A stretch of DNA of 64,000 nucleotides from a virus. Position 1 is the stretch's first letter; every line of letters starts with the position of its first letter. The stretch lies in the IMG/VR virus record IMGVR_UViG_3300025083_000016, positions 9,848 to 73,847 of that record. One strand, written 5' to 3'. The position numbers were made by a program, and so were the translations under genes. Of the stretch, positions 7,165-63,991 are shown one piece after another. The notes beneath the pieces are model-generated. The model saw only the letters and a program-made list of their open reading frames with translations. It was not told the DNA's origin and searched no databases.

Positions 7165-7752
7165 ATGTCAGAACTAGGTTTAACTCTAAAACAGCTAAGA
7201 AAAATAAATTCTCATAATGACAGGACTGTAGAAACACCTGTAAACCCTATTGGTATTAAAACTCCTTTAGAAAGAGGAACAAGAGAAAAAGAAACTCTTT
7301 TTAAAATGCATTTTGACATTGCTACACAGATTAAAGACAATCTAAAAAACCTAATTATGACGCAAAAAGGTGAAAGATTAGGTTTTCCAGACTTTGGTAC
7401 AAGTTTAAGGCAGATTTATTCAAATAATACTTTATCTAAAGATGAGATTGTTGATATTGCTTCTGAAGAAATCAAAGAAGTTGTTTTAAAATATATGCCT
7501 TCTATAAGGCTAGAAGAGTTTTATTCTTCAAAGGTAGACAATCAAGATCAAAAAAGCAATTACTCAAATAAAGCGGGTAGAGACTTTTCGTCTTCTTCAA
7601 ATAGTAATTTAAACTTTGAAGAAACAACTTTTAGAGAAATAAATATAAATAACATAGAAATTGACAGTATTTATGAAATTAAAATAAAGTATAGCATACC
7701 AATATTAAACAAAAAACAGGAATTAATTTTAAGAATTAACAGTTCTTTATAG
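7165..7752 (+). CDS. Baseplate wedge / sheath-initiator protein, gp25-like
   Basis: Signature IKDNLKNLIMTQKGERLGFPDFGTSL and a later YMP.I. Confidence 0.9.
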   Translation: MSELGLTLKQLRKINSHNDRTVETPVNPIGIKTPLERGTREKETLFKMHFDIATQIKDNLKNLIMTQKGERLGFPDFGTSLRQIYSNNTLSKDEIVDIASEEIKEVVLKYMPSIRLEEFYSSKVDNQDQKSNYSNKAGRDFSSSSNSNLNFEETTFREININNIEIDSIYEIKIKYSIPILNKKQELILRINSSL

Positions 7753-49936: not shown

Positions 49937-50538
49937 TGAATACTCCAAGGCTGATTACAGAGTGGACAAATTTTGAATACGACCCAAGCTTAATTAAAGA
50001 ACAAAAAGCAATGGGTAAACCTATGATGATGAAAGGAATTTTGCAAAAAGCAGAAACTTTAAATCAAAATGGCCGTGTTTATCCAAAAATTATTCTTGAA
50101 AGAGAAATTAGAAACTATCAAAAATTTATTAAAGAAAATAGAGCTTTAGGTGAATTAGATCATCCAGATTCTTCTGTTGTTGAACTAAAAAATTCATCTC
50201 ACATTATCAGAGAAGCTCATATAGAAGGAAACATTGTTTATGGCACAGTTGAGATTCTCAACACACCTAGCGGGAAGATTTTGCAATCTTTAGTTGAAAG
50301 TGGTGTGACTTTAGGTATTTCTTCACGTGGTGTAGGCAGTACTAAAACACAAGGTAATATGCAAATTGTACAAGATGACTTTCAGCTTATTTGTTGGGAC
50401 TTTGTAAGTGAGCCTTCAACTCCTGGTGCTTTTATGATGAAAGAAGGAAAAGAAGTAACACCTCAATTTATAAACGAAGTTTTTAACAAATCAGACAGAA
50501 TAGATAGAATATTTAATGACATATTGGAGTGGAAGTAA
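49936..50538 (+). CDS. Prohead maturation protease, T4 gp21-like
   Basis: NQNGRVYP, ALGELDHP, SH, TPSG, LGISSRGVGS, and DFVSEPSTPGA. Confidence 0.95.
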   Translation: MNTPRLITEWTNFEYDPSLIKEQKAMGKPMMMKGILQKAETLNQNGRVYPKIILEREIRNYQKFIKENRALGELDHPDSSVVELKNSSHIIREAHIEGNIVYGTVEILNTPSGKILQSLVESGVTLGISSRGVGSTKTQGNMQIVQDDFQLICWDFVSEPSTPGAFMMKEGKEVTPQFINEVFNKSDRIDRIFNDILEWK

Positions 50539-51098
50539 TGGCAATATCACATATACCAGGATCAATCGGACATAACTTTGTACCAGAATATCAAATTAGT
50601 GCTGTACCAAGAGTTGTCGACATATCAGTTTCAACTAAAGTAATAGTTAGAAAGTCTGATGGTTTGATTGTAGGAACTGCACCTGCTGGAGCTGCAGGGC
50701 AAGCTGTAACTTTAAATTCAAGCGGGACAGCAATTGGCGCAGCTGTAATTTTTGCTAATGTAGGCTCTCAAGTTGATGATGCATTACATGCAGGAGGCGC
50801 TTTTGTTTCTTTAAAAGTTGTAAAATTAGATAAAGTTTCACAATGGATTCAAGTGCAAAGTCCAGAAAATTCTGCTATGAGTTTAGCATTTTCTAGAAAA
50901 GATGCTGCAAATGGAAATCTAGTTGTTATAAATCAAGATACTAATTCATATCCACTTAGATTAAGATGTGTCAACATATATTTGCCAGATACAACAACTG
51001 CAGGAATAATTTTAGCAGGTCTTACTGTAATAGATAGAAAAGAATTTGATAATATAGTTGAAAAGTTTAGTGGCGACGATATTACAGTCAGCGTATAG
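50538..51098 (+). CDS. Putative virion (head decoration-like) protein
   Basis: Ala/Val/Gly-rich beta protein. The likely start is the ATG at 50538 overlapping the protease stop (TAATG), not the GTG at 50529. Confidence 0.5.
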   Translation: MAISHIPGSIGHNFVPEYQISAVPRVVDISVSTKVIVRKSDGLIVGTAPAGAAGQAVTLNSSGTAIGAAVIFANVGSQVDDALHAGGAFVSLKVVKLDKVSQWIQVQSPENSAMSLAFSRKDAANGNLVVINQDTNSYPLRLRCVNIYLPDTTTAGIILAGLTVIDRKEFDNIVEKFSGDDITVSV

Positions 51099-51106
51099 GA
51101 AAAACA

Positions 51107-51556
51107 ATGGCAAAAGTAACAAAAGAATTATTAAAGGAAATAGTAAAAGAGTGTCTTGTTGAGATTCTTGCAGAAGGTATAACAGGCGGAAATGTTGAAT
51201 CGTTAAGTGAAAGCATTGAAACACATATACCTCAAAAAAGACAGAAAAGAAGTGCACAGTCTCGTTTAATGAAAAACATACTTCCTCCAAAAGAAAAAGT
51301 AAGAAATGAAAGTTTTGAAAAGAAGTTAAATGAAACTATTTCTCAAACAACAAAAGACCCAGTAATGGCTGCAATTTTAGCAGACACAGCGAAAACTACA
51401 TTACAAGAACAGAATGGTGCAGACTCAGCAAATAGATTTGCTGCGAGACCAACTGATGATGCATCACAAATTGTTGCAAATACAGATCCGACAGAATTGT
51501 TTGCAGAATCAGCTTCTAATTGGGCACAGTTAGCTTTTTCTGATCGTAATAGGTAA
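51107..51556 (+). CDS. Putative prohead core/internal protein
   Basis: N-terminal LLKEIVKECLVEILAE and head-module position. Confidence 0.55.
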   Translation: MAKVTKELLKEIVKECLVEILAEGITGGNVESLSESIETHIPQKRQKRSAQSRLMKNILPPKEKVRNESFEKKLNETISQTTKDPVMAAILADTAKTTLQEQNGADSANRFAARPTDDASQIVANTDPTELFAESASNWAQLAFSDRNR

Positions 51557-51641
51557 TTTATCATAGACACGATAAAAATTTAACTGACAGTCATATAATT
51601 ATTATTAGACACAAACTAATTAAGTATATGGAGTCAACAAC

Positions 51642-51920
51642 ATGTCTAGTAAAAAACTTACCCCTAGCGTTTTAAGAAAAATTATTGCTGAAGAGCGTGC
51701 ACGTTTAAATGAGACTTTAGAAATGGGACTAAAACATCCTTCAGAGGCACCTAAAAGAACACGTGAAGTTGATGCTGATAAATATGCTAGCTCTTTAGAG
51801 CAGTGCTGCAACTGGTATCAAATGTGTAAACTAAAAGAATCAAAACTTGAAAGAGAACTACAACTTGTTAAAGAAGCAAAGAAAAGACTTAAAACAAGAA
51901 TTCTCAAAAGTGTGAAATAA
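51642..51920 (+). CDS. Putative small prohead core/internal protein
   Basis: N-terminal LTPSVLRKIIAEERARLNE; GGAG RBS. Confidence 0.55.
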   Translation: MSSKKLTPSVLRKIIAEERARLNETLEMGLKHPSEAPKRTREVDADKYASSLEQCCNWYQMCKLKESKLERELQLVKEAKKRLKTRILKSVK

Positions 51921-51958
51921 GCATATTTATTATTATACTACAATAAAAGGAGCAAAAA

Positions 51959-52648
51959 ATGGCTAAAGGCGCAAATGGTACAATTGATTTAGCAAGCTTT
52001 ACACAGTTGCAAAGGCAAAGAGAAGCTTTTGGTAATAGAAATCCAGCTGGAAAATCTTACGGGGTTGCAAGTAATAGACTTACTGAGGTCGACGGTGCAT
52101 TGTTTCCTAAAAGTCCTTTACTTGCAACCAATAGAAGTGGTCGACTTTCTGGCGATCGAGCAGGCATTTTTCCTGACAACGGAGACATATACAAAGCTTT
52201 TGCAAATGTTGTAGATAATAGTGAATCAATCAACGGTTTTGGATTTGATGATGCAGATCAAGTTAATCTAAACTATCAACATGCAGACAACCCTTTAAGT
52301 TCTGATGTTAATTCTTTAACAACAGGAAAACCAGCAGAAGAAATAGATAATTTTGGATCTAAAAAAAGATATGTAGGTTTTCCTGACTTAAAACCAGTAA
52401 GTGATTTATCTGTTCCTCAAGAAACTGCAAACACTGAAGCAACTCCAGGTCTAAAAAAGGTTCCTAACGAAAATTATGGTAGTAGTGTAGTTCAAGATAG
52501 AGATGCACTTAACCAGATTTATTCAGTTGTAGGATCTGGTAACAATGAAATGCAAGACCAAAGAGGTACTTACGAGTCTGATAGATTCTCATCTGATAAT
52601 GGTGATAAAATTGGAAAATATTTTAAAAATGTAATGGCTGGAGAATAA
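51959..52648 (+). CDS. Hypothetical head-module protein
   Basis: AAGGAG RBS; hydrophilic Gly/Asn/Asp-rich sequence. Confidence 0.6.
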   Translation: MAKGANGTIDLASFTQLQRQREAFGNRNPAGKSYGVASNRLTEVDGALFPKSPLLATNRSGRLSGDRAGIFPDNGDIYKAFANVVDNSESINGFGFDDADQVNLNYQHADNPLSSDVNSLTTGKPAEEIDNFGSKKRYVGFPDLKPVSDLSVPQETANTEATPGLKKVPNENYGSSVVQDRDALNQIYSVVGSGNNEMQDQRGTYESDRFSSDNGDKIGKYFKNVMAGE

Positions 52649-52651
52649 ATT

Positions 52652-53404
52652 ATGACAAAGTCAACTTTAAATAAAGAAATTAGTGATTTACCAAACAGAC
52701 ATGGTTATATTACAAAAAATTTAGAAGTTCATTCGTCTGATGAAAATCCTAGAAATTATTCTGAAGGTAAAGGTGAAGGAAATCATAACACTTTACAAAG
52801 TATATTTTCAAGTCATCCAGACTCTGTAGTTAATGTTTTACCTGACTCGACTGCAGCTAAAGATGCATCAGACTTTAAAATTGCAGCTTCAGTTTTTAAA
52901 GGAAGATCTGCTTTACAAGGTCTAGATATTTCTGGAGAGCATGAATTAGCTTTGAGACAAGTTGCAACAAGCTTAAGAAACTCTAGTTTGCAAATTAATA
53001 GAGAAAATGTAAGTAGTGCAATAAATGATTTTTTCGGCCAGCAAGAATCTGTTATAGTTAGTCAAAGTGAAGCATATGATCGGATTTTAGAAATTATAAG
53101 TGAACAAAATCAAGCTGAGTCTATAGCATACAATCCAGACTTTCCTTTAAACGATGTAAACTTTATGTATACACAAAGTGGTGTATCTAGAGCTAACGAT
53201 TTAGGTGATTTTGAAGAATCTCATTCGCCAAACGTAGCTTTTGGAAATCAGTCCAATTTTGATCCAACTCATGTATCTTCAAATCCTTTACAAGGTACTA
53301 AAGGATCAAGTGACGGTGGTTTTGGTGTTTCACCATTATCAGCATTTACTTCTAGAAATGTCTTAAAAGACGTTGTTAATAAATACAGAAACTCTGAAGA
53401 TTAA
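52652..53404 (+). CDS. Hypothetical head-module protein
   Basis: 250-aa hydrophilic Ser/Asn-rich ORF, tightly packed. Confidence 0.6.
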   Translation: MTKSTLNKEISDLPNRHGYITKNLEVHSSDENPRNYSEGKGEGNHNTLQSIFSSHPDSVVNVLPDSTAAKDASDFKIAASVFKGRSALQGLDISGEHELALRQVATSLRNSSLQINRENVSSAINDFFGQQESVIVSQSEAYDRILEIISEQNQAESIAYNPDFPLNDVNFMYTQSGVSRANDLGDFEESHSPNVAFGNQSNFDPTHVSSNPLQGTKGSSDGGFGVSPLSAFTSRNVLKDVVNKYRNSED

Positions 53405-54183
53405 TGACTGGTTTTTATCAAGGAACACTAAGCGGCCCAGGATCTGGTTTTGCAACAGGCGACACTCGAAGAGGTCTCGGTTATGCCAAAACTACAGGTG
53501 ACAGTAAATCTGGGCTAGGTGGTAACTGGGACATGGGTGATGCTTTAAGTTCTCCTATTGGACCTTACGACGATGTAGAAAATAGAATGTTTCCCGAACA
53601 AGGTGAAGACGAAGATTTGTCATATGACGAAATATTGTTTTACGCAAAGCAATCAAATGCTGTAGGCGGGAAAAATAACTTTGACATAGACTCATATTCA
53701 CATTATTCCAAACATGATATCGGAAGTTTTGTGCCTCACGCAAATACAGCAGCTGCAGTTCTTGCACAAGGATATGATAGAGGCAATGAAAAAATATTAA
53801 GAGAATTTATTAGAGAATCGCTAAGCGAAGTAACGTCAATGAGTGTTAGAGTAATGGTTAGAGGAAGTTTAGGAGACACTTATAAAAGTAGTAAAGCTAA
53901 TGTATCGAATGTAAATCAGATGTCGCCTGGTGACCCTTCTATAAAACAAAAAGGATATGGGCAAAGTGTTGGGACGCAAGACATGTATCCTTATGTTAAA
54001 GCAGGAAAGCCTACAACAGATGGTGCAGAGACTATGAGAAGAGTAAGTGCTCATATTGAAAACGACGACGAATTTGATTGGAACAATCCTAATTACTCAT
54101 CTTCAGATCATCTTATAGACACTACTGAAAAAGACTATTTAGACTGGGAAAACGTAAGAAGTCATAATAGAAAATTTAAATAA
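53404..54183 (+). CDS. Hypothetical head-module (internal) protein
   Basis: Gly/Ser/Asp-rich with an internal ILREFIRESLSE motif. Confidence 0.6.
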   Translation: MTGFYQGTLSGPGSGFATGDTRRGLGYAKTTGDSKSGLGGNWDMGDALSSPIGPYDDVENRMFPEQGEDEDLSYDEILFYAKQSNAVGGKNNFDIDSYSHYSKHDIGSFVPHANTAAAVLAQGYDRGNEKILREFIRESLSEVTSMSVRVMVRGSLGDTYKSSKANVSNVNQMSPGDPSIKQKGYGQSVGTQDMYPYVKAGKPTTDGAETMRRVSAHIENDDEFDWNNPNYSSSDHLIDTTEKDYLDWENVRSHNRKFK

Positions 54184-54253
54184 ATTTAAAATTAAAAAAA
54201 ATAGTCATAATTAAAATATATACTAATAACAAATAAAATGGCGAGAGTATAAC

Positions 54254-55777
54254 ATGTCTAATAATTTATATGAAGAAGCAATTAATGCTGCTGAACAAAT
54301 AAAAGAAGCAGCTGAGAGTCGTGTAAAGCAACAATTAGTGGAAGCAATGTCTCCTAAGATTAAACAATTGATAGAAAATAGTTTAATGGAAGAGCCAGAT
54401 GAGTGTGGTAAGAGTATTGAAGAAAAAGAATGTGGTGAAGGTATTGATGAGGGCGAAGTAGAAGAATGTGGTGAAGGTATTGAAGAAGAAGAAGGACAAA
54501 TTGAAATTTCATCTGAATCTGTCGATATTTTAAAGAAAATGTTAGGTCAAAAACAAAAAAGAAGTGCAATTTCAGAAAGTCTAGCGACAGTTAGAAAAGG
54601 AATTAATGCTCTTAAAAAAGCAATGATTCTAGCTGAAAATAACAAAAATTCTGCAAAAATTAAAAGAAAATTTGTTTATGCATATAATAATTTGTTGCAG
54701 GAATTAAAAAATATCAAATCTAGCAGCATAATTAAAACTGATAAAACACTATTAAAAGAATTTTTACAATTATCTAAGGAGTTAAACAATATGTCAAGAA
54801 GCAGATCTAGAAGTAGATACTTGAATGAAAACCTAGAAGACCTTCTAGAAATGAACCTTTTCGAAGAAGATGAAGACGAAGAAACTGAAGAAACTGAAGA
54901 AACTGAAGAAATGATGGATTCAGAAGAAGAATCTGATAAACCCGGTTCAGAAGGCGTTGATCTTGGGCCTCTTGAAGATATGTCTTTCAGAGAAGTTGTT
55001 GATGCTGCACTAAGTGGAGCTGATTCAGGTGCAGAAGAAATGGATCTTTCTTCACTCGATGATGAAGACGAAGACGAAATGGAAGAAGGCGTTGATGAAG
55101 TATATGAGGTTGAAGAGAATTTAGAGGGTCTAGAAGGCAAAGAAGAAATCGAAGCGGAAGGGTTGGAAGAAGGTCTCTTCTTAGAAATTGATGAAAATAT
55201 GCTTAAACGAGAAATTAAAAATATGAGAAGACTCCGTGAAGGTGAAGCTAAAGATATGGCATCACACTTTGGTGGAGGAAGTTTAGACAAAGAAATGTTT
55301 ATTGACGGTGTTGATCTTAATGTACATGCAGACCATTTAGGTCGCGAGGATGTACCTACACCTAAAGTTGAAGCTGCTCTTAGAAATGCTGTACGGAAAA
55401 ATCGTATTGTTGAGAGTAAGAACAAACAATATAAAAATGCTCTTCGAGGAATGAAGAAGCAATTAACAGAAATGAACCTTTTCAACGCAAAGCTTCTTTA
55501 TGCCAATAAGTTAATGCAAAATAGAGATCTTTCTATTAAGCAACAAAAACATATCGTAGAATCATTAGACGAAGCAGGAACTTTAAATGAAGCTAAGCTT
55601 CTTTTTGAAAGTCTTTCTAAATCTCTAAGCCGACCATCTAGAAAAGGTGGAAATCTTAATGAGAGTTCAAGTAGACGTGTTCTAAGCTCTTCATCACGTT
55701 CAGTGAAAAGTGCACAACCAATTAATGAAAACGTTGCACTTGATCGATGGGCTACTTTAGCAGGAATCAAAAAATAA
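54254..55777 (+). CDS. Prohead scaffolding/core protein (gp22-like role)
   Basis: Directly upstream of the MCP. Very acidic centre, coiled coil LTEMNLFNAKLLYANKL, terminal RWATLAGIKK. Confidence 0.8.
   Translation: MSNNLYEEAINAAEQIKEAAESRVKQQLVEAMSPKIKQLIENSLMEEPDECGKSIEEKECGEGIDEGEVEECGEGIEEEEGQIEISSESVDILKKMLGQKQKRSAISESLATVRKGINALKKAMILAENNKNSAKIKRKFVYAYNNLLQELKNIKSSSIIKTDKTLLKEFLQLSKELNNMSRSRSRSRYLNENLEDLLEMNLFEEDEDEETEETEETEEMMDSEEESDKPGSEGVDLGPLEDMSFREVVDAALSGADSGAEEMDLSSLDDEDEDEMEEGVDEVYEVEENLEGLEGKEEIEAEGLEEGLFLEIDENMLKREIKNMRRLREGEAKDMASHFGGGSLDKEMFIDGVDLNVHADHLGREDVPTPKVEAALRNAVRKNRIVESKNKQYKNALRGMKKQLTEMNLFNAKLLYANKLMQNRDLSIKQQKHIVESLDEAGTLNEAKLLFESLSKSLSRPSRKGGNLNESSSRRVLSSSSRSVKSAQPINENVALDRWATLAGIKK
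54401..54487 (+). repeat. Three coding repeats of E-C-G-[KE]-[SG]-I-[ED]-E
   Basis: Copies at 54401, 54428 and 54464. The last two share GAATGTGGTGAAGGTATTGA exactly. Confidence 0.85.
54791..55777 (+). CDS. Probable nested in-frame short scaffold isoform (328 aa, from Met180)
   Basis: TAAGGAG at 54775-54781, 9 nt before an in-frame ATG. CATAATTAAAA at 54727-54737 is identical to the motif at 54206-54216 upstream of the full ORF. Confidence 0.6.
   Translation: MSRSRSRSRYLNENLEDLLEMNLFEEDEDEETEETEETEEMMDSEEESDKPGSEGVDLGPLEDMSFREVVDAALSGADSGAEEMDLSSLDDEDEDEMEEGVDEVYEVEENLEGLEGKEEIEAEGLEEGLFLEIDENMLKREIKNMRRLREGEAKDMASHFGGGSLDKEMFIDGVDLNVHADHLGREDVPTPKVEAALRNAVRKNRIVESKNKQYKNALRGMKKQLTEMNLFNAKLLYANKLMQNRDLSIKQQKHIVESLDEAGTLNEAKLLFESLSKSLSRPSRKGGNLNESSSRRVLSSSSRSVKSAQPINENVALDRWATLAGIKK
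54878..54910 (+). repeat. 9-bp tandem repeat (GAAGAAACT x3 + partial) encoding EET
   Basis: Read directly from the sequence. Confidence 0.85.
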
Positions 55778-55826
55778 TTTTAATTTTAAACAAACTTAAT
55801 AATAAAACAAAAAGGAATTAAAAACT

Positions 55827-57803
55827 ATGAGTTTTTCATTACAAACTTTAACTGAAGGCATTCGTGATCGTCACGTAGGTCAACAAAACAAGAGATTGGT
55901 CGAGAAGTGGTCTCGTACTGGTCTTCTTCGTGGAATGGATGATGTAAACCGAGAAGTTATGGCTACTCTTTTAGAGAATCAAGCTGCTCAAGTTTTACGT
56001 GAATCTAATACTATGGGTTCCGGTGATGTTGGTGGTTTTACTAACATTGCTTTCCCAATCGTTCGTCGTGTATTCGGTGGACTCGTTGCAAATGAATTGG
56101 TTTCTATCCAACCTATGTCTCTTCCAAGTGGACTTCTTTTCTACTTAGATTACACCTATGGAAACGATGCAGGCGGTTATGCTAGTGGATCTTCAATTTA
56201 TGGTCAACCTAGCGGAAAAGATATTCAAAATGGTGCTGACGCTGTTGGTGGTCAATATGATCTTGCTGGAAGTGGATTTTCAAAAGTTCACGTAAAAGCA
56301 GCTTCAGCTGCTTCAAATCGTGACGGTGGTTTTGCGGTTGTTAGAACTAATGCAGCTGATGTTGCAGCTGATGTAGATGAAAATAAGGTTCAATTTGTAG
56401 TAGCAGCAGGAGCTTTTAGAGCATCAGACGCAGCTTTACAAGCAGATGGTGAAATTGCATTAGATTCTGTAGAAGATATGCGTCTTATTCAACATGATCC
56501 GCAACTTATTGAAAGAATTACTTCTGTAGCAGATGGTGGCAAAGGCGAGAATTATGCATTTTTACTATTACCTCTCTCGGCTACACAAGTAGGCGGACAA
56601 ACAAGTGGAGTTGCTAACTCTACAGTAAAACCACTTTCTTCAATGGATAAAACTTTAATTAAAGACTTAGTTTTACTTTCTGACACGACTGCTGTAGCTG
56701 ATAACTTGGACAGAATTCCTTCAGCAATGCAAAGTGGAAATGCAGTAAACCTTAAAAGATTAACACAATTAGGCGATTGGGATGGAACTAAATTTACTCC
56801 TGATGCAAATGCTTCACTTGACGCATCTTCTACAAGAGTATTACTTATTGTAAAGAAAGATGATGCTGCAACTCTTGCATCTAAAGATTTTGGAGATACA
56901 CTTAGAGTTTCTTTTGTAAAGGCAGACAATGTAACTGTTGGAACTGGTGGCGAAGCTGATGGAACTCCAGCATTTGAAAGTGGCATGCAAGAGCAAAGTA
57001 CTGCTATTAGCCCAACAATCCCAGAAATTGATATCAAGATCGAATCAATTCCAGTAACAGCTCAAACACGTAAGTTAAGAGCACGTTGGAGCCCAGAGTT
57101 GGCACAAGACCTTAACGCATACCATTCAATGGATGCAGAGGTTGAGCTTACTCAAATTCTTTCAGAGCAGATTGCTTTGGAAATCGATCGTGAGATTCTT
57201 GGAGATCTCCTTAGCGGTGCTAAGGGAGCTAACTTCTTCTGGAGTCGTTCACCTGGTAAATTTGTAAATAAGAGAACTGGTGCAGCTGTAGAACGTGCAA
57301 ACACATTACAACCTGGGCCAGCTTTCACTGGTACTGTTCGTGAATGGTATGAGACTTTAACTGAGACTGTTATTGACGTAGCAAATGAAATCCATAGAAA
57401 AACTCTTCGTGGATCTGCTAACTTTATCGTAGTATCTCCAGACGTTGCTACTATTCTAGAAGCTTCTGTATTATATCGTCCTTCTTATAGCCTTGATGGT
57501 GACGGACAAGTTGGTGCTCCATTTACTATGGGTGCTGAAAAGATTGGATCTCTTTCTAATCGTTTCACAGTTTACAAAGATCCTTACTTCCCTCGTAACA
57601 AAATCCTTGTTGGATACAAAGGTGGTTCTTATCTTGAAACTGGTTTCGTTTATGCTCCATATGTACCCCTCATCGTTACACCGACCATTTTCCAACCAGA
57701 AGATTTCACACCACGTAAGGGTGTTATGACTCGTTATGGTAAAAAGATGGTACGTGCTGACTTCTACGGAACTGTAACTTGTTTGGACATGAACATTATC
57801 TAA
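55827..57803 (+). CDS. Major capsid protein, T4 gp23-like, with a large insertion
   Basis: LLENQA, PIVRRVF..LVANELVSIQPMSLPSGLLFYLD, TRKLRARWSPELAQDLNAYH..DAEVEL, EIDREI, GYKG, YAPYVPL, and PRKGVMTRYG. Confidence 0.97.
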   Translation: MSFSLQTLTEGIRDRHVGQQNKRLVEKWSRTGLLRGMDDVNREVMATLLENQAAQVLRESNTMGSGDVGGFTNIAFPIVRRVFGGLVANELVSIQPMSLPSGLLFYLDYTYGNDAGGYASGSSIYGQPSGKDIQNGADAVGGQYDLAGSGFSKVHVKAASAASNRDGGFAVVRTNAADVAADVDENKVQFVVAAGAFRASDAALQADGEIALDSVEDMRLIQHDPQLIERITSVADGGKGENYAFLLLPLSATQVGGQTSGVANSTVKPLSSMDKTLIKDLVLLSDTTAVADNLDRIPSAMQSGNAVNLKRLTQLGDWDGTKFTPDANASLDASSTRVLLIVKKDDAATLASKDFGDTLRVSFVKADNVTVGTGGEADGTPAFESGMQEQSTAISPTIPEIDIKIESIPVTAQTRKLRARWSPELAQDLNAYHSMDAEVELTQILSEQIALEIDREILGDLLSGAKGANFFWSRSPGKFVNKRTGAAVERANTLQPGPAFTGTVREWYETLTETVIDVANEIHRKTLRGSANFIVVSPDVATILEASVLYRPSYSLDGDGQVGAPFTMGAEKIGSLSNRFTVYKDPYFPRNKILVGYKGGSYLETGFVYAPYVPLIVTPTIFQPEDFTPRKGVMTRYGKKMVRADFYGTVTCLDMNII

Positions 57804-57839
57804 TAATTAGTTCAATCACAACCTCGAAGTGACAATATA

Positions 57840-57877
57840 GAAAACTGCTTCATTTTTAAAATGTTGTGGTTTTTTTT
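57840..57877 (+). terminator. Probable intrinsic terminator after the major capsid gene
   Basis: Imperfect hairpin AAAACTGC-TT-CATTT...AAATG-TT-GTGGTTTT running into a T-tract. Confidence 0.5.
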
Positions 57878-57941
57878 GTGTGTAAAATATGCATAATCAT
57901 AATAATATATATATGTATATACCACGAAAAGGAGTAACAAC

Positions 57942-59321
57942 ATGAAATGTCAATTATGTGATTTTGAAGGTGAAGGAAAAAACTTTAGTAATCATTTACA
58001 AAAAGTGCACAAGCTAAAAAGTAAAGAATACACAAAACAATATATCTGTAAAGATTATAATGGATGTTTGAATTGTGGTAAAGAGACAAGATATGTTGCA
58101 TATACATTTAAGAAATATTGTAAAGATTGCGCAAAAGTTGGAATGTCTATAGGCGGAAGGAAAGGCGGAAAGCATGAAGCTTGGAATAAAGGAAAGACAA
58201 AAGAAACAGACTGTAGGATAAAAGGCAGTTCAGGAAAAGACAATCCTTTTTGGGGTAAGAATCATTCTGAAGAAACTTTAAATAGAATAAGTTTGACAAA
58301 AAGATTAGGTGGAAAAGAAGTATTAGAAAGAATTTTAAAGAGAAACAAAGAATTTGAAATTTTAACCCCTGTAGATGAGTATTTTAGTCGTCAAAGACAA
58401 TATCTAGATTTCAAATGTAAGAAATGTGGATTTGAGTGTAAAAAAACTTTACAAGCATTTGAAAGAGGATCATTGTGTCCTAAATGTTATCCTGTGACAA
58501 GGTCTAAAGCAGAAATTGAAATATATGAATATATTGTTAACTTGAGGATAGACGACGTTTTATCTAATGATAGAAGTCTAATAAAACCTAAGGAAATCGA
58601 TATTCTGTCAAAACAGAATAACTTCGGGATAGAATTTAATGGTTTGTATTGGCATAGTGACGTTATTGATAAAACAACTAAGTACGATTTGTTAAATAAG
58701 ACAAAATTATGTAAAGATTTAGGTGTAAAGTTAATGCACATCTATTCAGATGAATGGGAATACAAAAGAAATATCTGTCAGAGTATGATTAAAAATAGAC
58801 TTGGATTGTGCAATAAGGTTTTTGCAAGAAAGTGTAAGCTAAAAGAAATAGATAAAAAAGATTTTAGCAGATTTATGAATGATAATCATATAAGTGGAAG
58901 TGTGAATAGTAGTGTAAGGTTAGGATTATACTTTAATGAAGAGTTAATCTTAGCAATTGGTTTTAGGAAGCCTAGACAGAAAAAGTGGAGTGGCTACTAT
59001 GAAATAAGCAGATTTGCTACAAAATTAGACTATGTTGTTGTAGGTGGATTAAGTAAATTATTAAAATTTTTTAAAAATCAAGTATCGAGAAAGATAATGA
59101 CATACGCAGACCGTCGTTTTGGTGAAGGTTTAGGTTATGAAAAAGCTGGTTTTAAATATTACGGAGATTCCGGAATCGACTATTGGTATTCAGATGGAAG
59201 AAACAGATATGATAGATTTATCATAAAAACTGATGATAAAATGACAGAAAGAGAGAAAGCTGCAGATATGGGTTTATATAAGGTTTGGGGTTGCGGAAGC
59301 AATATCTGGGTTCTCGATTGA
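57942..59321 (+). CDS. Free-standing Hef-like homing endonuclease (Zn fingers, NUMOD3, Vsr/PD-(D/E)XK-like core, GNAT-like C-terminus)
   Basis: CQLC...H...H, CLNC/CKDC, AWNKG, NPFWGKNHSEET, CKKC/CPKC, EIDI...GIEFNGLYWHS, EISRFA...VVGGLSKLL, and TYADRRF..G..Y...GF. Confidence 0.75.
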   Translation: MKCQLCDFEGEGKNFSNHLQKVHKLKSKEYTKQYICKDYNGCLNCGKETRYVAYTFKKYCKDCAKVGMSIGGRKGGKHEAWNKGKTKETDCRIKGSSGKDNPFWGKNHSEETLNRISLTKRLGGKEVLERILKRNKEFEILTPVDEYFSRQRQYLDFKCKKCGFECKKTLQAFERGSLCPKCYPVTRSKAEIEIYEYIVNLRIDDVLSNDRSLIKPKEIDILSKQNNFGIEFNGLYWHSDVIDKTTKYDLLNKTKLCKDLGVKLMHIYSDEWEYKRNICQSMIKNRLGLCNKVFARKCKLKEIDKKDFSRFMNDNHISGSVNSSVRLGLYFNEELILAIGFRKPRQKKWSGYYEISRFATKLDYVVVGGLSKLLKFFKNQVSRKIMTYADRRFGEGLGYEKAGFKYYGDSGIDYWYSDGRNRYDRFIIKTDDKMTEREKAADMGLYKVWGCGSNIWVLD

Positions 59322-59394
59322 ATCTGTTAAAAAGTTCATTATTTTAAAAGGTGATCGTATTTAATATAATTATAAAAAAATATAAGGAAATCAA

Positions 59395-62361
59395 ATGAAA
59401 CATTATGTACCATTATTATTAATAGTTTTTTCTCTTTTTGGCTGTGAAGAACAGGTAATTAATCAAGAAGATTTAAGACCTGATTTTGAAAGCATTCCAG
59501 CACCAACAAGACCTAGTCAAGATCAATTAATTGAAGAAGATATAGAGATAATTGATGATTATTTAACTGATGACTTATCAGTAGAAGATATGTTTGTACA
59601 AGAAGATTATGATATGACAATTGACCAAAACGTTCAACCTGTAGCTTTGGAAAGTTGTATGTCATGTCATAATAGCGCAACTGCAACAAATTATGATGGT
59701 TCAGGTATTGAAAACCCACATCCATTCCCTCCAGCAGATAATATAAAATGTACAACATGTCATGGAGGTAACGGTAGTGTAAATGGTAGATTAAATGCAC
59801 ATGTATCACCACCTCCTGAAATTGGTGACGATCAATATCAAGTGTTAAACCCAAAAGCTTTCTTTAATAGAACAACACTTTCAGGTATTGATAAATTACA
59901 GCCAGAAGTTTATACAGACGCAAATGGCAACACATATTCAAATTTAGATTATTTGCAGTTTATTAATCCAGGAGACCTAAGAGTAGTTAAAGAAGGAAGA
60001 GGATGTGGTACTAGTGGGTGTCACGGTGACCAACATGGTGACTGGGTAACAAAATCAACAATAGGCACAACAAATGGAATATTCAGTTCTACAAGATTTA
60101 TTGTAGGATTAGACAACGATATTCCAGAATATAGAATTGATGAAGAAGGAAATGCTTTAAGTGATTATGCGCCAAGAAGCGTAGAAAACGCATTATTTAG
60201 CTGGTTAGTTAGAAATGTTGGTGAAGTAGGTATGTTGCTAGAGCAAAGAGAATGGGCACAATATGATGGCTTTATGAGGCAAAACAATGGGTTTGATGCA
60301 AACTCACTAGCAAATGATATTGATAATACAGATTTACAAAGGCCTAATAGAATAAGAAACGGTTCTAATTTAGAAAAACTAGTAACAGAAGCTATTTCTA
60401 TAACTTGTGGTGACTGTCATTTATATAGTGCAGGTGCAAACAATAGATACGGAGACTTTAGATCATCTGGCTGTAGTTCATGTCATATGGAATATAGTTT
60501 AGACGGAAAAAGTAGATCTAGGGACCCAAACATAAACAAATTAGAGCCTGCTAATCCCGATCAGATTGCTCCTGGCGAAAGGTCTCATCCATCTGATCAT
60601 GTTATTAGAAACATAAGTAAAACTATTAACAACGTTCAAGTAAGAGGTATTACAGACAACGCATGTGTAGGTTGTCATCAAGGTTCAAATAGAACGGTTT
60701 TACAATTCTGGGGAATTAGACTAGATCAAAATAAAGATTTAACAAATAATACACAATATCCAGATAATCCTGAAAACTTTACAAATACAGCAAATGATAG
60801 AAGACTTTTTGATCCTGCAGTAAATAATAACACTTTCAATGGAAGAGATGCTGACCAATATATATTATTTGAAGACTATGATGGCGACGGATTAGATGAC
60901 ACACCTCCTGATATTCATTATGAAAGAGGTTTAGGTTGCATTGATTGTCATAGCAGCAGAGATTTACACGGTGGCACTGCTGGAGACGTAACTAATGGTA
61001 AAATACAAAGTAGACAAGATCAGAGCACGTTTATTACTTGTGAAAGCTGTCATGGGACAATAGAGGAATACGCAACAACTTCAGAGTGTAAAGACTACAG
61101 TAATCAAGATTCACAATGTGCACAAGATAGACTCGGAAATTCACTTAGAAATGTAACTGTAGATCCGTCAGGAAACTATTGGCTAAAGAGTAAAGTTTTT
61201 GGAACAACTCATTATATAAGTCAAATTAAAGATATTACGAGACAAACAAACAAAGCACATCCAAGAACAGGACAACTTATTTATAATCCTAATGCTGCAT
61301 ATGCAATGGGTCGAATAGGTACAGCTCCTGGAAATGGTCCTATTCAAGCAGATCCTTTAAAATATTCTCAAAACTTCAGTCATACAGATGATATGGATTG
61401 TGCATCTTGTCATTCTTCTTGGACAAATAATTGTATAGGTTGTCATTTAAGAACAGACTATAATGATAATCCAAATGAATATTTCTTTAGTAATATAACA
61501 GGAGAAAGAATATTATTAGCAGAAGGCGCAGCAGACTTTGTCTACCAGAGTCCAGTGCTTTCATACTTAGGGATTAATAGTAAAGGAAAGATTACACAGA
61601 TTGATCCAGCAGAGAAAATGTTTTATAGATATGTGGATTTAAATGGCAACGAATCTCAAGTTTTTGCATTTGGTGATCGATTGGGTGAAGGTAATAATCC
61701 AAATGTAGGCGGAAGAAACCAATTCCCAGCATTAGCAATGAATCAAATGGCACCACATAGCATAAGAGGAAGACTTTCACCTAATCAAAATGCTGAGCCT
61801 TTGAAGTATTGTGTTGCATGTCACTTAACAGAAAATGCAATTGATAATTTTGGTGATGAATATGCTTTATTTAAAGATTTGTACTTTAATAATGACATTC
61901 AAGGCTTGTTTGACAATGGGTTCTTTGATTTAATGCAAGAACATATTGGTAGGAATACAAATAATCAAATAGACTCACCTTTCTATGTTCATATGACAAC
62001 AGGACTAGGAACATCTTTATTTATGTTTGATCAAAATGGTTGTCCAGTTAATCCGTTAGATAATAATGCAAATCGAGAATACTGTGATGGTAATGCACCT
62101 GCTAATAATTTTGATCCTAATAATGTTTTTTATGACTTAGATAGAATTGTAGAGATAACTGGACAAACAAATAGCTCTAGCTCACATACAAGAATAAACA
62201 ATCTAGGGCCAAGAAGAGATGGAAACAATTACAACATGTCAGGACCTTTAAATAGACAGTTAATTGAAAAGCTTTCAGATCCAAATCAAGGTTTAATATT
62301 AGATTCTTGGTTAGATGCTAATGGTAATGCACAAGGTAATGCAGCAGACTTTATTCAATAG
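59395..62361 (+). CDS. Multiheme c-type cytochrome lipoprotein (11 predicted hemes)
   Basis: Signal peptide with lipobox LFG-C17. Heme motifs in order: CMSCH, CTTCH, CGTSGCH, CGDCH, CSSCH, CVGCH, CIDCH, CESCH, CASCH, CIGCH, CVACH. AAGGA RBS. Confidence 0.93.
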   Translation: MKHYVPLLLIVFSLFGCEEQVINQEDLRPDFESIPAPTRPSQDQLIEEDIEIIDDYLTDDLSVEDMFVQEDYDMTIDQNVQPVALESCMSCHNSATATNYDGSGIENPHPFPPADNIKCTTCHGGNGSVNGRLNAHVSPPPEIGDDQYQVLNPKAFFNRTTLSGIDKLQPEVYTDANGNTYSNLDYLQFINPGDLRVVKEGRGCGTSGCHGDQHGDWVTKSTIGTTNGIFSSTRFIVGLDNDIPEYRIDEEGNALSDYAPRSVENALFSWLVRNVGEVGMLLEQREWAQYDGFMRQNNGFDANSLANDIDNTDLQRPNRIRNGSNLEKLVTEAISITCGDCHLYSAGANNRYGDFRSSGCSSCHMEYSLDGKSRSRDPNINKLEPANPDQIAPGERSHPSDHVIRNISKTINNVQVRGITDNACVGCHQGSNRTVLQFWGIRLDQNKDLTNNTQYPDNPENFTNTANDRRLFDPAVNNNTFNGRDADQYILFEDYDGDGLDDTPPDIHYERGLGCIDCHSSRDLHGGTAGDVTNGKIQSRQDQSTFITCESCHGTIEEYATTSECKDYSNQDSQCAQDRLGNSLRNVTVDPSGNYWLKSKVFGTTHYISQIKDITRQTNKAHPRTGQLIYNPNAAYAMGRIGTAPGNGPIQADPLKYSQNFSHTDDMDCASCHSSWTNNCIGCHLRTDYNDNPNEYFFSNITGERILLAEGAADFVYQSPVLSYLGINSKGKITQIDPAEKMFYRYVDLNGNESQVFAFGDRLGEGNNPNVGGRNQFPALAMNQMAPHSIRGRLSPNQNAEPLKYCVACHLTENAIDNFGDEYALFKDLYFNNDIQGLFDNGFFDLMQEHIGRNTNNQIDSPFYVHMTTGLGTSLFMFDQNGCPVNPLDNNANREYCDGNAPANNFDPNNVFYDLDRIVEITGQTNSSSSHTRINNLGPRRDGNNYNMSGPLNRQLIEKLSDPNQGLILDSWLDANGNAQGNAADFIQ

Positions 62362-62467
62362 CTGATTTAAACTGTTTCGTTTTGCTTCTGTTTTATGTGT
62401 TTAAATTATGATATTTTACACTTATTATATATAATTAATACAAAACAGAGAAGGAACAAGAACAATT

Positions 62468-62797
62468 ATGAAAAGAAAAGAAACAAGTAAACTTTTAAAT
62501 GAGTGGAAAAGCTTTTTAAATGAAAGTCAATTAGACACTGATGCTCTTGAAAATTTTGATGATGCTAATGCTTTAAACGCACCATATGAAGAGCCTAGAG
62601 GAGTGGATGAAGACAAAGAAGCAATATTTTGGGCACTTTCTCAAATGGGTCTTAATGAAAAAAATATTTCTGATGTTTTAAATATGCTGAGTGGAATGAA
62701 GTCATCAAGTATTGCTGAGTTAGCTGAAGAGTTTGATGAGCAAGCATTTGGTAGTCGTGAAGAACTAGAAAAAGACATACATTTATCAGAAAGATAA
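62468..62797 (+). CDS. Small acidic protein, putative internal head protein
   Basis: N-terminal KLLNEWKSFLNE; preceded by ATAATTA and AAGGA. Confidence 0.6.
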   Translation: MKRKETSKLLNEWKSFLNESQLDTDALENFDDANALNAPYEEPRGVDEDKEAIFWALSQMGLNEKNISDVLNMLSGMKSSSIAELAEEFDEQAFGSREELEKDIHLSER

Positions 62798-62800
62798 TTT

Positions 62801-63175
62801 ATGAAATTTCCAATTTTTATAGAGAATTCAAGAATACCTGTCTGGTTAAGTAAATTTTCTCCGATTAATATAAATGCAATTACATTAGGACCTATTGTCT
62901 TAAGTCGTTCAACACTGTCAGAAAGAGTGAAGAGACATGAAACTATTCATTTCATGCAGTATAAAGAACTCTTTTTTATTGGCTTTTTGTTAGTATATCT
63001 ATTTGATTATTTATATGCAGCGATAATTAAGAGAAAAGGTTTTTCTCGTGAGTCTTATTTGTCAATTCGGTTTGAGCAAGAAGCTTATGATAACGATCAT
63101 GATATTGATTATCTAAAAAGAAGAAAAAAGTTTCGATGGAAAGACTATCCATTGGGCGGAAAAAACAAGGAATAG
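62801..63175 (+). CDS. HExxH-motif (zincin-like) small protein
   Basis: AITLGP...RHETIHFMQ, a hydrophobic helix, then FEQEAY. Confidence 0.65.
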   Translation: MKFPIFIENSRIPVWLSKFSPININAITLGPIVLSRSTLSERVKRHETIHFMQYKELFFIGFLLVYLFDYLYAAIIKRKGFSRESYLSIRFEQEAYDNDHDIDYLKRRKKFRWKDYPLGGKNKE

Positions 63176-63178
63176 ATT

Positions 63179-63700
63179 ATGCCATTTTCATATCAAGGAA
63201 AGAAACAACAAATAAAGCAAATAAACACATCACCTTCAAAATCTGAAGTTGCTGCTGCAAAAGAGCTAGGAATAGATCTTGCTAAAAATTGGAGAGCATA
63301 TTCTAAAGAAGCACGTCTTCATGTTTATGTTTCCAATATGAAAGAAATGGTTAGATTTTATAATCAAATATTAGAGTTTCCAGTTGTACGATATTGGAGA
63401 TACTCTGACGGTGATGGGACAATGTTAGATATTGGTGGGAATGCAATAGAACTCTTTTCAAAAGGAAGACGAAATTTTTCTGATAAGAATTTTTATGGAA
63501 GTGTTTCGTTATCTATTAAAGTTCAAGATGTTTGCAAGCTATATGAAAAGTTTTGTAAAAAAAATATAAAGCTAGGAGAACTAGTTAGTCACGAGTGGGG
63601 AGACACATCTTTTAAAGTAATTGACCCTGAAGGTAATCGTTTAGTATTCTTCAGTCCTGATATTTCAAAAGAGAAATATTATAAGGTTAGAAGAGGATAG
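63179..63700 (+). CDS. VOC/glyoxalase/bleomycin-resistance fold protein with an N-terminal extension
   Basis: LHVYVSNM....RFY..ILEF, IELF, LSIKVQDV..LY, and WGDTSFKVIDPEGNRLVF. Confidence 0.85.
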   Translation: MPFSYQGKKQQIKQINTSPSKSEVAAAKELGIDLAKNWRAYSKEARLHVYVSNMKEMVRFYNQILEFPVVRYWRYSDGDGTMLDIGGNAIELFSKGRRNFSDKNFYGSVSLSIKVQDVCKLYEKFCKKNIKLGELVSHEWGDTSFKVIDPEGNRLVFFSPDISKEKYYKVRRG

Positions 63701-63721
63701 ACTGCAAAGGAGATAATATCT

Positions 63722-63991
63722 ATGTCATGGGATGTTTACGTTGTTGTCTGTTTTGACAATTCTTTTTACTGTGGTATTACAACAGATATCGAAAGAAGAA
63801 TAAAACAGCATAACGGAGAGTTATCTGGTGGCGCAAAGTATACAAGAGGACGACGTCCTTGTCGTTTAGCGTATAAAGAAAAAGCCGAGAATAGATCCTC
63901 GGCTTTAAAAAAAGAGTATTGGTTTAAAAAACTCTCAAGAAGAGAGAAAGAAAAATATATTTCTTATCCTTCTGAACCTTCTGAACTTTGA
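63722..63991 (+). CDS. Small GIY-YIG nuclease (UPF0213/YhbQ-like)
   Basis: VYVV.C.D.SFYCGITTDIERR..QHN...GAKYTRGRRP...E...RSSALKKE..FKKLSR.EK; AAGGAG RBS. Confidence 0.9.
   Translation: MSWDVYVVVCFDNSFYCGITTDIERRIKQHNGELSGGAKYTRGRRPCRLAYKEKAENRSSALKKEYWFKKLSRREKEKYISYPSEPSEL

What the first reader, a model, noticed from the sequence alone, without database searches (positions are those of the whole stretch)
59395..62361. Phage-encoded 11-heme cytochrome c lipoprotein
SEEN: a 988-aa intact ORF with a lipoprotein signal (MKHYVPLLLIVFSLFG-C). It has 10 CXXCH motifs plus one CX4CH, spread from 59656 to 61824, several isolated His residues that could be distal ligands (ENPHP, NAHV, PPDIHY, RDLHG, FSHTD, MAPHS), two extra Cys pairs, and a DYDGDGLDD calcium-loop-like stretch. 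It lies two genes after the major capsid gene, with phage-type genes on both sides, and has the same A/T-ending codon bias. KNOWN: CXXCH in an exported protein marks covalent heme c attachment, which needs a Ccm or Ccs maturation system; none is encoded in this window. Large multiheme cytochromes act as electron wires or anaerobic redox enzymes in bacteria and archaea and are not a standard phage auxiliary gene class. INFERENCE: the phage installs its own membrane-anchored electron conduit or redox enzyme in the host envelope. Possible roles are sustaining or rerouting respiration during infection, exchanging electrons with extracellular acceptors, draining host heme/iron, or masking a cytochrome receptor. 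This is the best candidate for an undescribed system.
Basis: partly seen in the sequence, partly recalled or inferred. Interest (0 to 1): 0.95.

Follow-up and report, generated by a model that had tools for sequence, protein, structure and literature searches.

The report
Marine phage carries 11-heme cytochrome
A widespread marine T4-like phage carries an intact, strongly conserved copy of a large 11-heme lipoprotein cytochrome taken from Myxococcota bacteria, a kind of host-derived metabolic gene almost unreported in phages, though its exact job is still unknown.

Summary
Window 59395-62361 (+) encodes an intact 988-aa protein with a lipoprotein signal, 10 CXXCH motifs and one CX4CH motif; shuffled sequence gives 0.02.

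It is truly phage-borne. It lies between a T4-type Gp23 capsid gene and further phage genes. Two independent metagenome assemblies and two DNA runs of different years reproduce the linkage. Its codon usage matches the phage (GC3 0.17; RSCU r 0.96).

It belongs to a large, uncharacterised family of ~1000-aa 11-heme lipoproteins in Myxococcota, Planctomycetota and Gammaproteobacteria, distantly ExtM-like. The phage copies form a clade nested within Myxococcota. They evolve under strong purifying selection (dN/dS 0.07-0.08), keep every heme motif in all 19 full-length copies, and have lost the cellular Cys-rich N-terminal module.

No partner cytochrome, barrel or heme-attachment gene lies on the 73.8-kb contig, which is only ~23% of the genome.

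Best reading: a host-derived auxiliary gene whose product is matured by host machinery and plugs into the host's envelope electron-transfer chain. Whether it acts as a wire or an enzyme is unresolved.

This scan had already noted the cellular family on other DNA (Planctomycetota). No tool or library search found this family in another phage; one 2026 preprint reports a NapC/NirT multiheme cytochrome in phages.

The parts
59395..62361 (+). Gene for a 988-aa 11-heme c-type cytochrome lipoprotein (P0001)
   Evidence: Open frame. 10 CXXCH + 1 CX4CH. Pfam Cytochrom_c3_2 at 47.5 bits. All motifs invariant in 76 homologues. AF2 pLDDT 85.7, pTM 0.84.
59395..59445 (+). Signal peptide and lipobox ending in Cys17
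   Evidence: MKHYVPLLLIVFSLFG-C. C17 at least 90% conserved in the family. Kept in all 12 full-length copies of the phage cluster.
59446..59631 (+). Acidic disordered tether (residues 18-79) that replaces the Cys-rich N-terminal module of cellular homologues
   Evidence: pLDDT below 50 over residues 14-79. N-termini compared: cellular homologues carry a Cys-rich CxxY...DC...CDDGxDND module; P0001 and P0005 do not.
59656..61824 (+). Span holding the 11 heme-attachment motifs
   Evidence: Positions listed; invariant in alignments A1 and A2.
60871..60900 (+). Invariant acidic loop E493-D502 (EDYDGDGLDD), a possible Ca2+ site just before heme 7
   Evidence: E493, D494, Y495, D496, D498, D501 and D502 are invariant in 76 sequences. 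Metal binding is inference only.
59322..59394 (+). Upstream intergenic region with ATAATTAT (59366-59373) and an AAGGA ribosome-binding site (59384-59388)
   Evidence: Sequence. ATA[AT]TTA occurs at 4.96 per kb in intergenic DNA against 0.52 per kb in coding DNA, and also precedes the genes starting at 7165, 34790, 45106, 51959, 54254 and 62468.
55827..57803 (+). T4-type major capsid protein gene (context)
   Evidence: Pfam Gp23 E 3e-78; phrog_138 E 2e-75. Its 3' end is linked to the cytochrome gene in the independent contig L098.
57942..59321 (+). HNH/NUMOD3 homing endonuclease gene, a variable insert between the capsid and cytochrome genes
   Evidence: phrog_3339 E 8e-80. Replaced by an unrelated 267-aa ORF in L098. 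A DNA contig in run X1 joins 57834 to 59338.
62468..63991 (+). Downstream phage genes (109-aa ORF, phrog_15610, glyoxalase-like, GIY-YIG), syntenic in the related phage contig L082
   Evidence: blastn of L082 against the window gives 76-93% identity in the same order. L082 annotation.

Best explanation
This is a host-derived auxiliary metabolic gene of a marine T4-like phage, probably a jumbo phage. The phage lineage captured, from a Myxococcota (Bradymonadia-like) lineage that is probably its host group, the gene for a lipid-anchored, exported 11-heme c-type cytochrome. It shed the Cys-rich N-terminal module, recoded the gene to phage codon usage and placed it behind a phage-type intergenic motif. 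During infection the pre-protein would be exported by Sec, lipidated at Cys17 and loaded with 11 hemes by the host Ccm system in the periplasm. It would then join the host's own envelope electron-transfer chain as an extra or replacement copy of the host orthologue, keeping that redox pathway running while host gene expression declines. Shown here: the gene's integrity, its phage location, its origin, selection on it, and the presence of maturation genes in donor-clade genomes. Inferred: export, heme loading, the partners, and the benefit to the phage.
For: Phage location: Gp23 capsid, terminase, portal, prohead protease, baseplate wedge and primase genes lie on the same strand. Not a chimera: L098 joins the capsid gene end to the cytochrome start, and L082 joins the cytochrome end to the same downstream genes. 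DNA contigs of runs X1 (2017) and X6 (2025) cover 57.6-64 kb and bridge the 3' junction. Long residence in phages: GC3 0.173 against 0.189 +/- 0.032 for phage genes; RSCU r 0.957 with the phage against -0.61 to 0.29 with cellular homologues. Selection: dN/dS is 0.067 (dS 0.80) and 0.081 (dS 0.47) between phage copies. All 12 full-length copies of the phage's own 90% cluster and all 7 full-length P0005-type copies keep 10+1 motifs and the lipobox. Origin: the clade (window, L082)+P0005 has support 97-98 and is nested in a Myxococcota clade with support 100, in both FastTree and IQ-TREE. Maturation: three donor-clade genomes each carry three PF01578 genes. Cellular context is redox: Planctomycetota operons hold a CcsA-like gene, an FAD/4Fe-4S oxidoreductase and multiheme cytochromes before the 11-heme gene; Sandaracinaceae have DUF3570 directly downstream; the closest Myxococcota have a lipoprotein with two CX4CH motifs directly downstream. 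Twelve conserved non-motif His residues are available for 11 hemes, which fits mostly bis-His electron-transfer hemes. A phage-type intergenic motif precedes the gene. Contigs from two RNA libraries of separate studies lie on the gene at 96-98% identity; the tool warns that this does not prove transcription.
Against: No partner cytochrome, barrel or Ccm/Ccs gene lies on the contig. The host is not identified directly, and the phage's 29% GC is far below the 43-53% of the nearest cellular loci. The cellular family has no experimentally known function. The loss of the N-terminal module might alter docking to host partners. Eleven iron atoms per molecule is a high cost in seawater. No heme attachment, localisation or expression has been shown.
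Confidence: 0.6

Rival explanations
1. It is a self-sufficient periplasmic or surface redox enzyme rather than a wire. An octaheme-reductase-like core with one catalytic heme would reduce or detoxify a soluble substrate such as tetrathionate, nitrite, hydroxylamine, sulfite or selenite for the infected cell.
For: The only cytochrome in two structure searches is the Shewanella octaheme tetrathionate reductase 1sp3: Z 4.0, rmsd 4.7 over 280 residues with the whole model, and Z 3.3 over 171 residues with the excised core. Faint sequence matches lie in the same register: TIGR04315 at 506-556 and NrfA PF02335 at 507-561, and PDB NrfA chains at E 0.19-0.58. Heme density is low (1 per ~82 aa of the mature protein, from the motif positions). 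An invariant acidic loop and an invariant basic stretch follow heme 5. The gene travels alone in the phage.
Against: All of these scores are below curated cut-offs or in the noise range (Z below 5). There is no CXXCK or other known catalytic motif. Twelve conserved His residues could make all 11 hemes six-coordinate. In cells the gene is embedded among other cytochromes.
Confidence: 0.22
2. It has a non-redox role. The lipoprotein would mask or mimic a surface cytochrome that serves as the phage receptor (superinfection exclusion), or act as a heme/iron sink.
For: From general knowledge, phage-encoded lipoproteins such as T5 Llp and Cor act in exclusion. The phage copy lacks the N-terminal module of cellular homologues.
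Against: Purifying selection covers the whole 988 aa, and all 11 heme motifs and 8 invariant distal-type His residues are kept. A mere decoy would not need this. No receptor information exists.
Confidence: 0.1
3. It is an assembly chimera, or a recently captured and decaying passenger gene with no function for the phage.
For: The gene lies 1.6 kb from the contig end. Its GC (34%) is slightly above the window's 29%.
Against: Two independent contigs and two DNA runs reproduce both junctions. Codon usage is fully phage-like. dN/dS is 0.07-0.08 with dS up to 0.8. Twelve intact full-length copies come from several sources, with a fragment from the Global Ocean Sampling set.
Confidence: 0.03
4. It is a virion protein: a head-module product targeted to the capsid and processed by the prohead protease.
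For: The gene sits in the head-gene module. An earlier first-reader note proposed (L/I)-x-E capsid-targeting tags across 49100-62797. The acidic tether contains LIE and IEE.
Against: The signal peptide and lipobox are conserved in the phage copies and are shared with cellular homologues. From established knowledge, heme c attachment occurs only after export, whereas heads assemble in the cytoplasm. Conserved heme motifs would be pointless inside a capsid.
Confidence: 0.03

Closest known systems
Uncharacterised ~1000-aa 11-heme lipoprotein cytochrome family of Myxococcota, Planctomycetota and Gammaproteobacteria (annotated 'hypothetical protein' or 'cytochrome c3 family protein')
   Same: 48-73% identity over about 900 residues. 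All 11 motifs, 8 invariant His, 2 Cys pairs and the acidic loop are shared. The phage copy branches inside the family's Myxococcota clade.
   Different: The phage copies lack the Cys-rich N-terminal module, have phage codon usage, and have none of the cellular neighbours.
ExtM (GSU2935) of Geobacter sulfurreducens, NCBIfam NF040943; a 12-heme, 68-kDa cytochrome of the extHIJKLMNOPQS cluster (PMC5877670)
   Same: Best named sequence relative: 82.9 bits in three stretches. ExtM-named clusters are the next nearest in the ESM Atlas at 0.89. Both are large multiheme proteins of envelope electron-transfer clusters.
   Different: The score is a tenth of the equivalog cut-off (800). This protein has 11 hemes, not 12, is 988 aa against ~600, and is a lipoprotein. 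ExtM's own function is untested.
Octaheme tetrathionate reductase of Shewanella oneidensis (PDB 1sp3) and the NrfA/HAO multiheme superfamily
   Same: It is the only cytochrome found by structure (Z 4.0 and 3.3), and faint sequence matches lie in a consistent register.
   Different: Z is below 5 and the scores are far below cut-offs. No Lys-ligated or CXXCK site is evident. Three extra N-terminal hemes and large beta-rich insertions are present.
[quoted passage not shown]
   Same: A host-derived redox protein gene carried by large phages and grouping with host homologues.
   Different: It belongs to a different cytochrome family and is far larger than the NapC/NirT type (from my own knowledge, usually tetraheme). 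It is a lipoprotein rather than a quinol dehydrogenase, and is marine with Myxococcota affinity.
MtrC/OmcA/UndA outer-surface deca- and undecaheme cytochromes
   Same: A lipoprotein with 10-11 hemes. Some cellular relatives have a possible outer-membrane partner gene beside them: DUF3570, whose barrel fold I recall but did not test.
   Different: TIGR03507 scores 17.3 bits against a cut-off of 209. Neither fold search listed these structures, which is inconclusive.

Membership tests
c-type multiheme cytochrome | Multiple CXXCH heme-attachment motifs, more than chance gives | tested here: met
   10 CXXCH + 1 CX4CH against 0.02 in shuffles; invariant in 76 homologues.
c-type multiheme cytochrome | Export signal, since heme c is attached outside the cytoplasm | tested here: met
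   Signal peptide plus lipobox by sequence pattern, conserved in the family and in the phage copies. No SignalP/LipoP tool was available.
c-type multiheme cytochrome | Covalent heme actually attached | not testable with these tools
   Needs expression with a Ccm system, heme staining and mass spectrometry.
Bacterial lipoprotein | Lipobox [LVI][ASTVI][GAS]C after a hydrophobic stretch | tested here: met
   L-F-G-C17. Phe at position -2 is atypical. Relatives have LIGC, ALGC and FFGC.
ExtM equivalog (NF040943) | Score at or above the curated cut-off of 800 bits | tested here: not met
   82.9 bits.
OmcA/MtrC/UndA family (TIGR03507) | Score at or above the cut-off of 209.3 bits | tested here: not met
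   17.3 bits. PF22113 scores 30.4 against a cut-off of 30, but only over one heme-motif stretch, residues 77-127.
Octaheme tetrathionate reductase family (TIGR04315) | Score at or above the cut-off of 375 bits | tested here: not met
   13.8 bits.
Octaheme tetrathionate reductase / NrfA superfamily fold | Shared heme-core fold | tested here: inconclusive
   1sp3 at Z 4.0 (280 residues aligned) and Z 3.3 (171 aligned).
NrfA (PF02335) | Gathering score of 24.1 bits and a CXXCK active-site motif | tested here: not met
   15.3 bits; no CXXCK.
Phage auxiliary metabolic gene | Located inside a genuine phage genome with phage genes on both sides | tested here: met
   independent assemblies and runs.
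Phage auxiliary metabolic gene | Cellular homologues, with the phage copy nested among them | tested here: met
Phage auxiliary metabolic gene | Maintained by purifying selection in the phage lineage | tested here: met
   dN/dS 0.067 and 0.081; motifs intact in 19 full-length copies.
Phage auxiliary metabolic gene | Expressed during infection | tested here: inconclusive
   Contigs from RNA libraries lie on the gene in runs X15 and X16, but contigs cannot prove transcription.
Porin-cytochrome conduit | Adjacent outer-membrane barrel and periplasmic cytochrome genes | tested here: not met
   None found in the window, the 73.8-kb contig or the 6.5 kb downstream in L082. The contig is only about 23% of the genome. 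In cells the partners vary, and their barrel folds were not tested here.

The most novel reading that the evidence does not exclude
A widespread marine T4-like jumbo phage of Myxococcota equips its infected host with a phage-made, surface-exposed 11-heme terminal cytochrome. This would change the cell's extracellular redox chemistry during infection, for example reductive iron or manganese mobilisation or electron disposal in low-oxygen water. If so, viruses would take a direct part in extracellular electron transfer and marine metal cycling.
Probability: 0.25. Interest if true: 0.85.

Novelty: new variant of a known kind. Interest (0 to 1): 0.7.

Why it matters
Known phage auxiliary genes for electron transfer are small carriers or single subunits, such as plastocyanin, ferredoxin and PTOX (from my own knowledge), and recently a NapC/NirT cytochrome. 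A 988-aa, 11-heme lipoprotein kept under strong selection in a phage found in marine metagenomes of at least a dozen studies would widen that class to large envelope cytochromes. It costs 11 iron atoms per molecule in seawater, so the benefit must be real. It also points to marine Myxococcota as hosts of T4-like jumbo phages. Finally, it gives a compact, module-trimmed natural variant with which to study an abundant but wholly uncharacterised cytochrome family.

Tried and rejected
The genomic contexts of P0003-P0011, and of P0005 (the putative second phage lineage), could therefore not be fetched. That P0005 is phage-borne rests only on its tree position, its missing N-terminal module and its AT-type amino-acid composition.

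**Searches that found nothing.**
- Phage records (tblastn) and IMG/VR, searched with one sequence and with a profile, gave no relative. The window's own record may be hidden there by design.
- Foldseek against PDB and BFVD gave nothing at E <= 0.001.
- The PDB sequence profile gave only NrfA chains at E 0.19-0.58.

**Excised core.** Folding hemes 4-11 (residues 325-835) alone gave a poor model, pLDDT 63.6. Its search tied 1sp3 with unrelated kinases, so it did not settle enzyme versus wire.

**Ligand geometry.** Model coordinates are not exposed to scripts, so distal ligands could not be assigned.

**Cluster 6.** I expected the gene downstream in the closest Myxococcota to be a barrel. Instead it is a lipoprotein with two conserved CX4CH motifs and no Pfam match.

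**Other negatives.**
- Sigma-70-like and terminator scans around the gene were not above chance.
- No tRNA gene lies in the window, so that gave no host clue.
- RNA contigs: depth over the cytochrome was low, and some neighbouring parts had no cover.
- A joint 60656->62464 in X1 has only 21 letters on its shorter side and was disregarded.
- A CRISPR-spacer search of donor-clade genomes was considered and not run, as the odds were low.
- Complex prediction was not used: the protein alone nearly fills the size limit.

**Unverified recollection.** The Ga0098048 sample (source of L082) may come from an oxygen-minimum-zone virome series. I could not check this and did not use it.
Full report
**Observation.** Window 59395-62361 (+) is an uninterrupted 988-codon frame.
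- It has ten CXXCH motifs and one CX4CH motif (Cys204-Cys209-His210), spanning nt 59656-61824. Shuffles of the same protein give 0.02 CXXCH on average.
- The N-terminus is a signal peptide ending in a lipobox Cys17.
Four more His are at least 90% conserved.

**Is it really in a phage?**
- The window is a T4-like myophage segment. On the same strand lie baseplate wedge, primase, SbcC-like nuclease, large terminase, portal, prohead protease and Gp23 capsid genes.
- It is part of a 73,847-b IMG/VR record rated about 23% complete, so the genome is probably jumbo-sized.
- The gene lies 1.6 kb from the contig end, which makes the chimera test matter. Three lines of evidence exclude a chimera.
- First, metagenome contig L098 (93% aa identity) joins the capsid gene's 3' end to the cytochrome's 5' end. 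Contig L082 (92%) joins the cytochrome's 3' end to the same downstream genes and continues for 6.5 kb of AT-rich phage-like ORFs.
- Second, contigs of DNA runs from different studies and years (X1 from 2017, X6 from 2025) cover 57.6-64 kb. They bridge the 3' junction at 60976-62577 and 61573-62967.
- Third, the stretch is held by marine runs of at least a dozen studies.
- The homing endonuclease between the capsid and cytochrome genes is a variable insert. L098 has an unrelated 267-aa ORF there, and one X1 contig joins 57834 to 59338.

**Residence and selection.**
- GC3 of the gene is 0.173, inside the phage distribution of 0.189 +/- 0.032. Its RSCU correlates 0.957 with the other phage genes, against -0.61 to 0.29 with cellular homologues, whose GC3 is 0.34-0.93.
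- Between phage copies dN/dS is 0.067 (dS 0.80, 664 codons) and 0.081 (dS 0.47, 500 codons).
- The window's own 90% cluster has 18 members from JGI, ENA and the Global Ocean Sampling set. All 12 full-length members keep the 10+1 motifs and the lipobox.
- A second cluster (P0005, 67% identical, 10 members) also keeps everything. It also lacks the cellular N-terminal module, and its AT-type amino-acid bias equals the phage's (1.16 against a family median of 0.84).

**What family is it?**
- More than 1100 proteins match, and 265 loci were found in species-representative genomes. All are about 1000 aa and nearly all are annotated as hypothetical. They come mainly from Myxococcota (Bradymonadia, Sandaracinaceae, Polyangia), Planctomycetota and Gammaproteobacteria.
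- FastTree on 82 rows and IQ-TREE (LG+C20 PMSF) on 38 rows agree. The pair (window, L082) joins P0005 with support 97-98. This group lies within a 12-row clade (96-97) that includes an 'uncultured Myxococcales' MAG (L003). The whole is nested in a Myxococcota clade with support 100.
- The best cellular identities are 69-73%. Acquisition from a Myxococcota lineage is therefore well supported. That this lineage is the host is an inference.
- Three donor-clade genomes each have three PF01578 cytochrome c assembly genes, so such hosts can mature the protein. The phage contig has none.

**Named relatives are all distant.**
- ExtM scores 82.9 bits against a cut-off of 800. OmcA/MtrC scores 17.3 against 209, octaheme tetrathionate reductase 13.8 against 375, and NrfA 15.3 against 24.1.
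- The ESM Atlas lists the protein's own family first and ExtM-named clusters next.
- ExtM is a 12-heme, 68-kDa cytochrome of a Geobacter cluster that also holds a porin and a bc-like pair. The cluster is implicated in selenite and tellurite reduction and is induced by Fe(III). ExtM itself is untested (PMC5877670).

**Structure.**
- AlphaFold2 with 76 sequences gives pLDDT 85.7 and pTM 0.84, with a disordered tether over residues 14-79.
- Foldseek finds nothing in PDB or BFVD.
- VIA-align against 48,161 chains finds one cytochrome, the Shewanella octaheme tetrathionate reductase 1sp3, at Z 4.0 (rmsd 4.7, 280 residues). The excised core finds it again at Z 3.3, but that model is poor and the hit is tied with noise.
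- This is a lead, not a fold assignment.

**Cellular context.**
- I clustered the ORFs around 160 loci and annotated representatives.
- **Planctomycetota:** a conserved operon precedes the gene. It holds a CcsA-like protein, DUF2959, a 745-aa FAD/4Fe-4S oxidoreductase, a ~720-aa multiheme cytochrome, an unannotated ~600-aa protein and a small c7-type cytochrome. This agrees with earlier notes of this scan on other genomes, which read the 11-heme protein as the terminal lipoprotein of a trans-envelope wire.
- **Sandaracinaceae:** a DUF3570 protein follows directly.
- **Closest Myxococcota:** a 320-390-aa lipoprotein with two invariant CX4CH motifs and no Pfam match follows, and lgt lies divergently upstream. 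The remaining neighbours are housekeeping genes.
- The family thus works with other cytochromes in the envelope, but with different partners in different phyla. The phage carries none of them.

**Mechanism.**
- The most likely reading (0.6) is a classic auxiliary gene: a host-type envelope cytochrome made from the phage genome, matured by host Sec, Lgt and Ccm, and inserted into the host's chain.
- Twelve conserved non-motif His for 11 hemes fits a mainly bis-His wire.
- The faint reductase similarity, the low heme density, the invariant acidic loop and the solitary carriage keep an enzyme reading alive (0.22).
- Exclusion or decoy roles (0.1), an artefact or decaying passenger (0.03) and a virion protein (0.03) are less likely, for the reasons given under the rivals.
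- ATA[AT]TTA is ten times denser in intergenic than in coding DNA at similar AT content (4.96 against 0.52 per kb). It precedes the cytochrome gene as it precedes several virion genes. This suggests that the gene is read by the phage's own programme; the timing is unknown.

**Novelty.**
- Full-text searches found a NapC/NirT multiheme cytochrome in amoC-phages and multiheme cytochromes on Borgs and other archaeal extrachromosomal elements. They found no large multiheme lipoprotein in a phage.
- I rate this a new variant of a known kind (phage auxiliary electron-transfer genes), with interest 0.7.

Noticed in passing
window 56282-57021 (inside the capsid gene 55827-57803): The 658-aa Gp23 homologue carries an in-frame insert of about 246 aa between its two Gp23-matching parts (Pfam matches at 31-100 and 371-648). 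One DNA contig (X1) and several RNA-library contigs (X15) join across it (56260-56282 to 57012-57021), so relatives lack it or have it replaced. The joints have short sides (27-36 letters) and are weak evidence.
   Followed up: partly
window 57834-59338; L098:212-1155: The slot between the capsid and cytochrome genes is a swap site. The window holds a 459-aa HNH/NUMOD3 homing endonuclease, L098 holds an unrelated 267-aa ORF without Pfam match, and a GIY-YIG endonuclease gene sits at 63722.
   Followed up: partly
window 62391-62449; L098:256-314: A ~59-bp intergenic element downstream of the cytochrome gene recurs (83% identity) just after the capsid gene in the related contig L098. It may be a mobile or regulatory intergenic module.
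   Followed up: no
window intergenic sites 7133, 34733, 34759, 45070, 45077, 51595, 51923, 54207, 59366, 62431: ATA[AT]TTA is about 10 times enriched in intergenic DNA (4.96 against 0.52 per kb) at similar AT content, which makes it a candidate phage promoter element. The T4 late consensus TATAAATA is absent from intergenic DNA.
   Followed up: partly
L002:12877-14043, L003:12955-14100 and 7 more (alignment A3): In the closest Myxococcota, the gene directly downstream of the 11-heme cytochrome encodes a 320-390-aa lipoprotein with two invariant CX4CH motifs in a duplicated domain and no Pfam match. It is a likely unrecognised diheme partner.
   Followed up: partly
L002:8112-9011 (-) and 8 other Myxococcota loci: Prolipoprotein diacylglyceryl transferase (lgt) lies divergently next to the lipoprotein cytochrome gene in nine loci.
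   Followed up: no
L149:133-9735 and about 40 Planctomycetota loci: A conserved operon lies upstream of the 11-heme gene: a CcsA-like gene, DUF2959, an FAD/4Fe-4S oxidoreductase, a ~720-aa multiheme cytochrome, an unannotated ~600-aa protein and a small c7 cytochrome. Other reports of this scan had already noted it.
   Followed up: partly
N-termini of cellular homologues (e.g. L002, L003, L004 proteins, residues ~60-150): Cellular family members carry a Cys-rich module (CxxY..DC...CxEC...CDDGxDNDxDGxxDCxDxDC) between the lipobox and the first heme. The phage copies replace it with an acidic linker.
   Followed up: partly
window 54860-55080 (inside ORF 54254-55777): The acidic repeat region of the scaffold-like ORF varies in length between populations: several contigs skip 91-174 bases or carry other GAA-rich letters there.
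   Followed up: no
window 41699-44827: A 1042-aa ORF matches the SbcC-like nuclease subunit only over residues 289-1039. An earlier first-reader note reads it as a fused Mre11-Rad50. I did not examine it.
   Followed up: no
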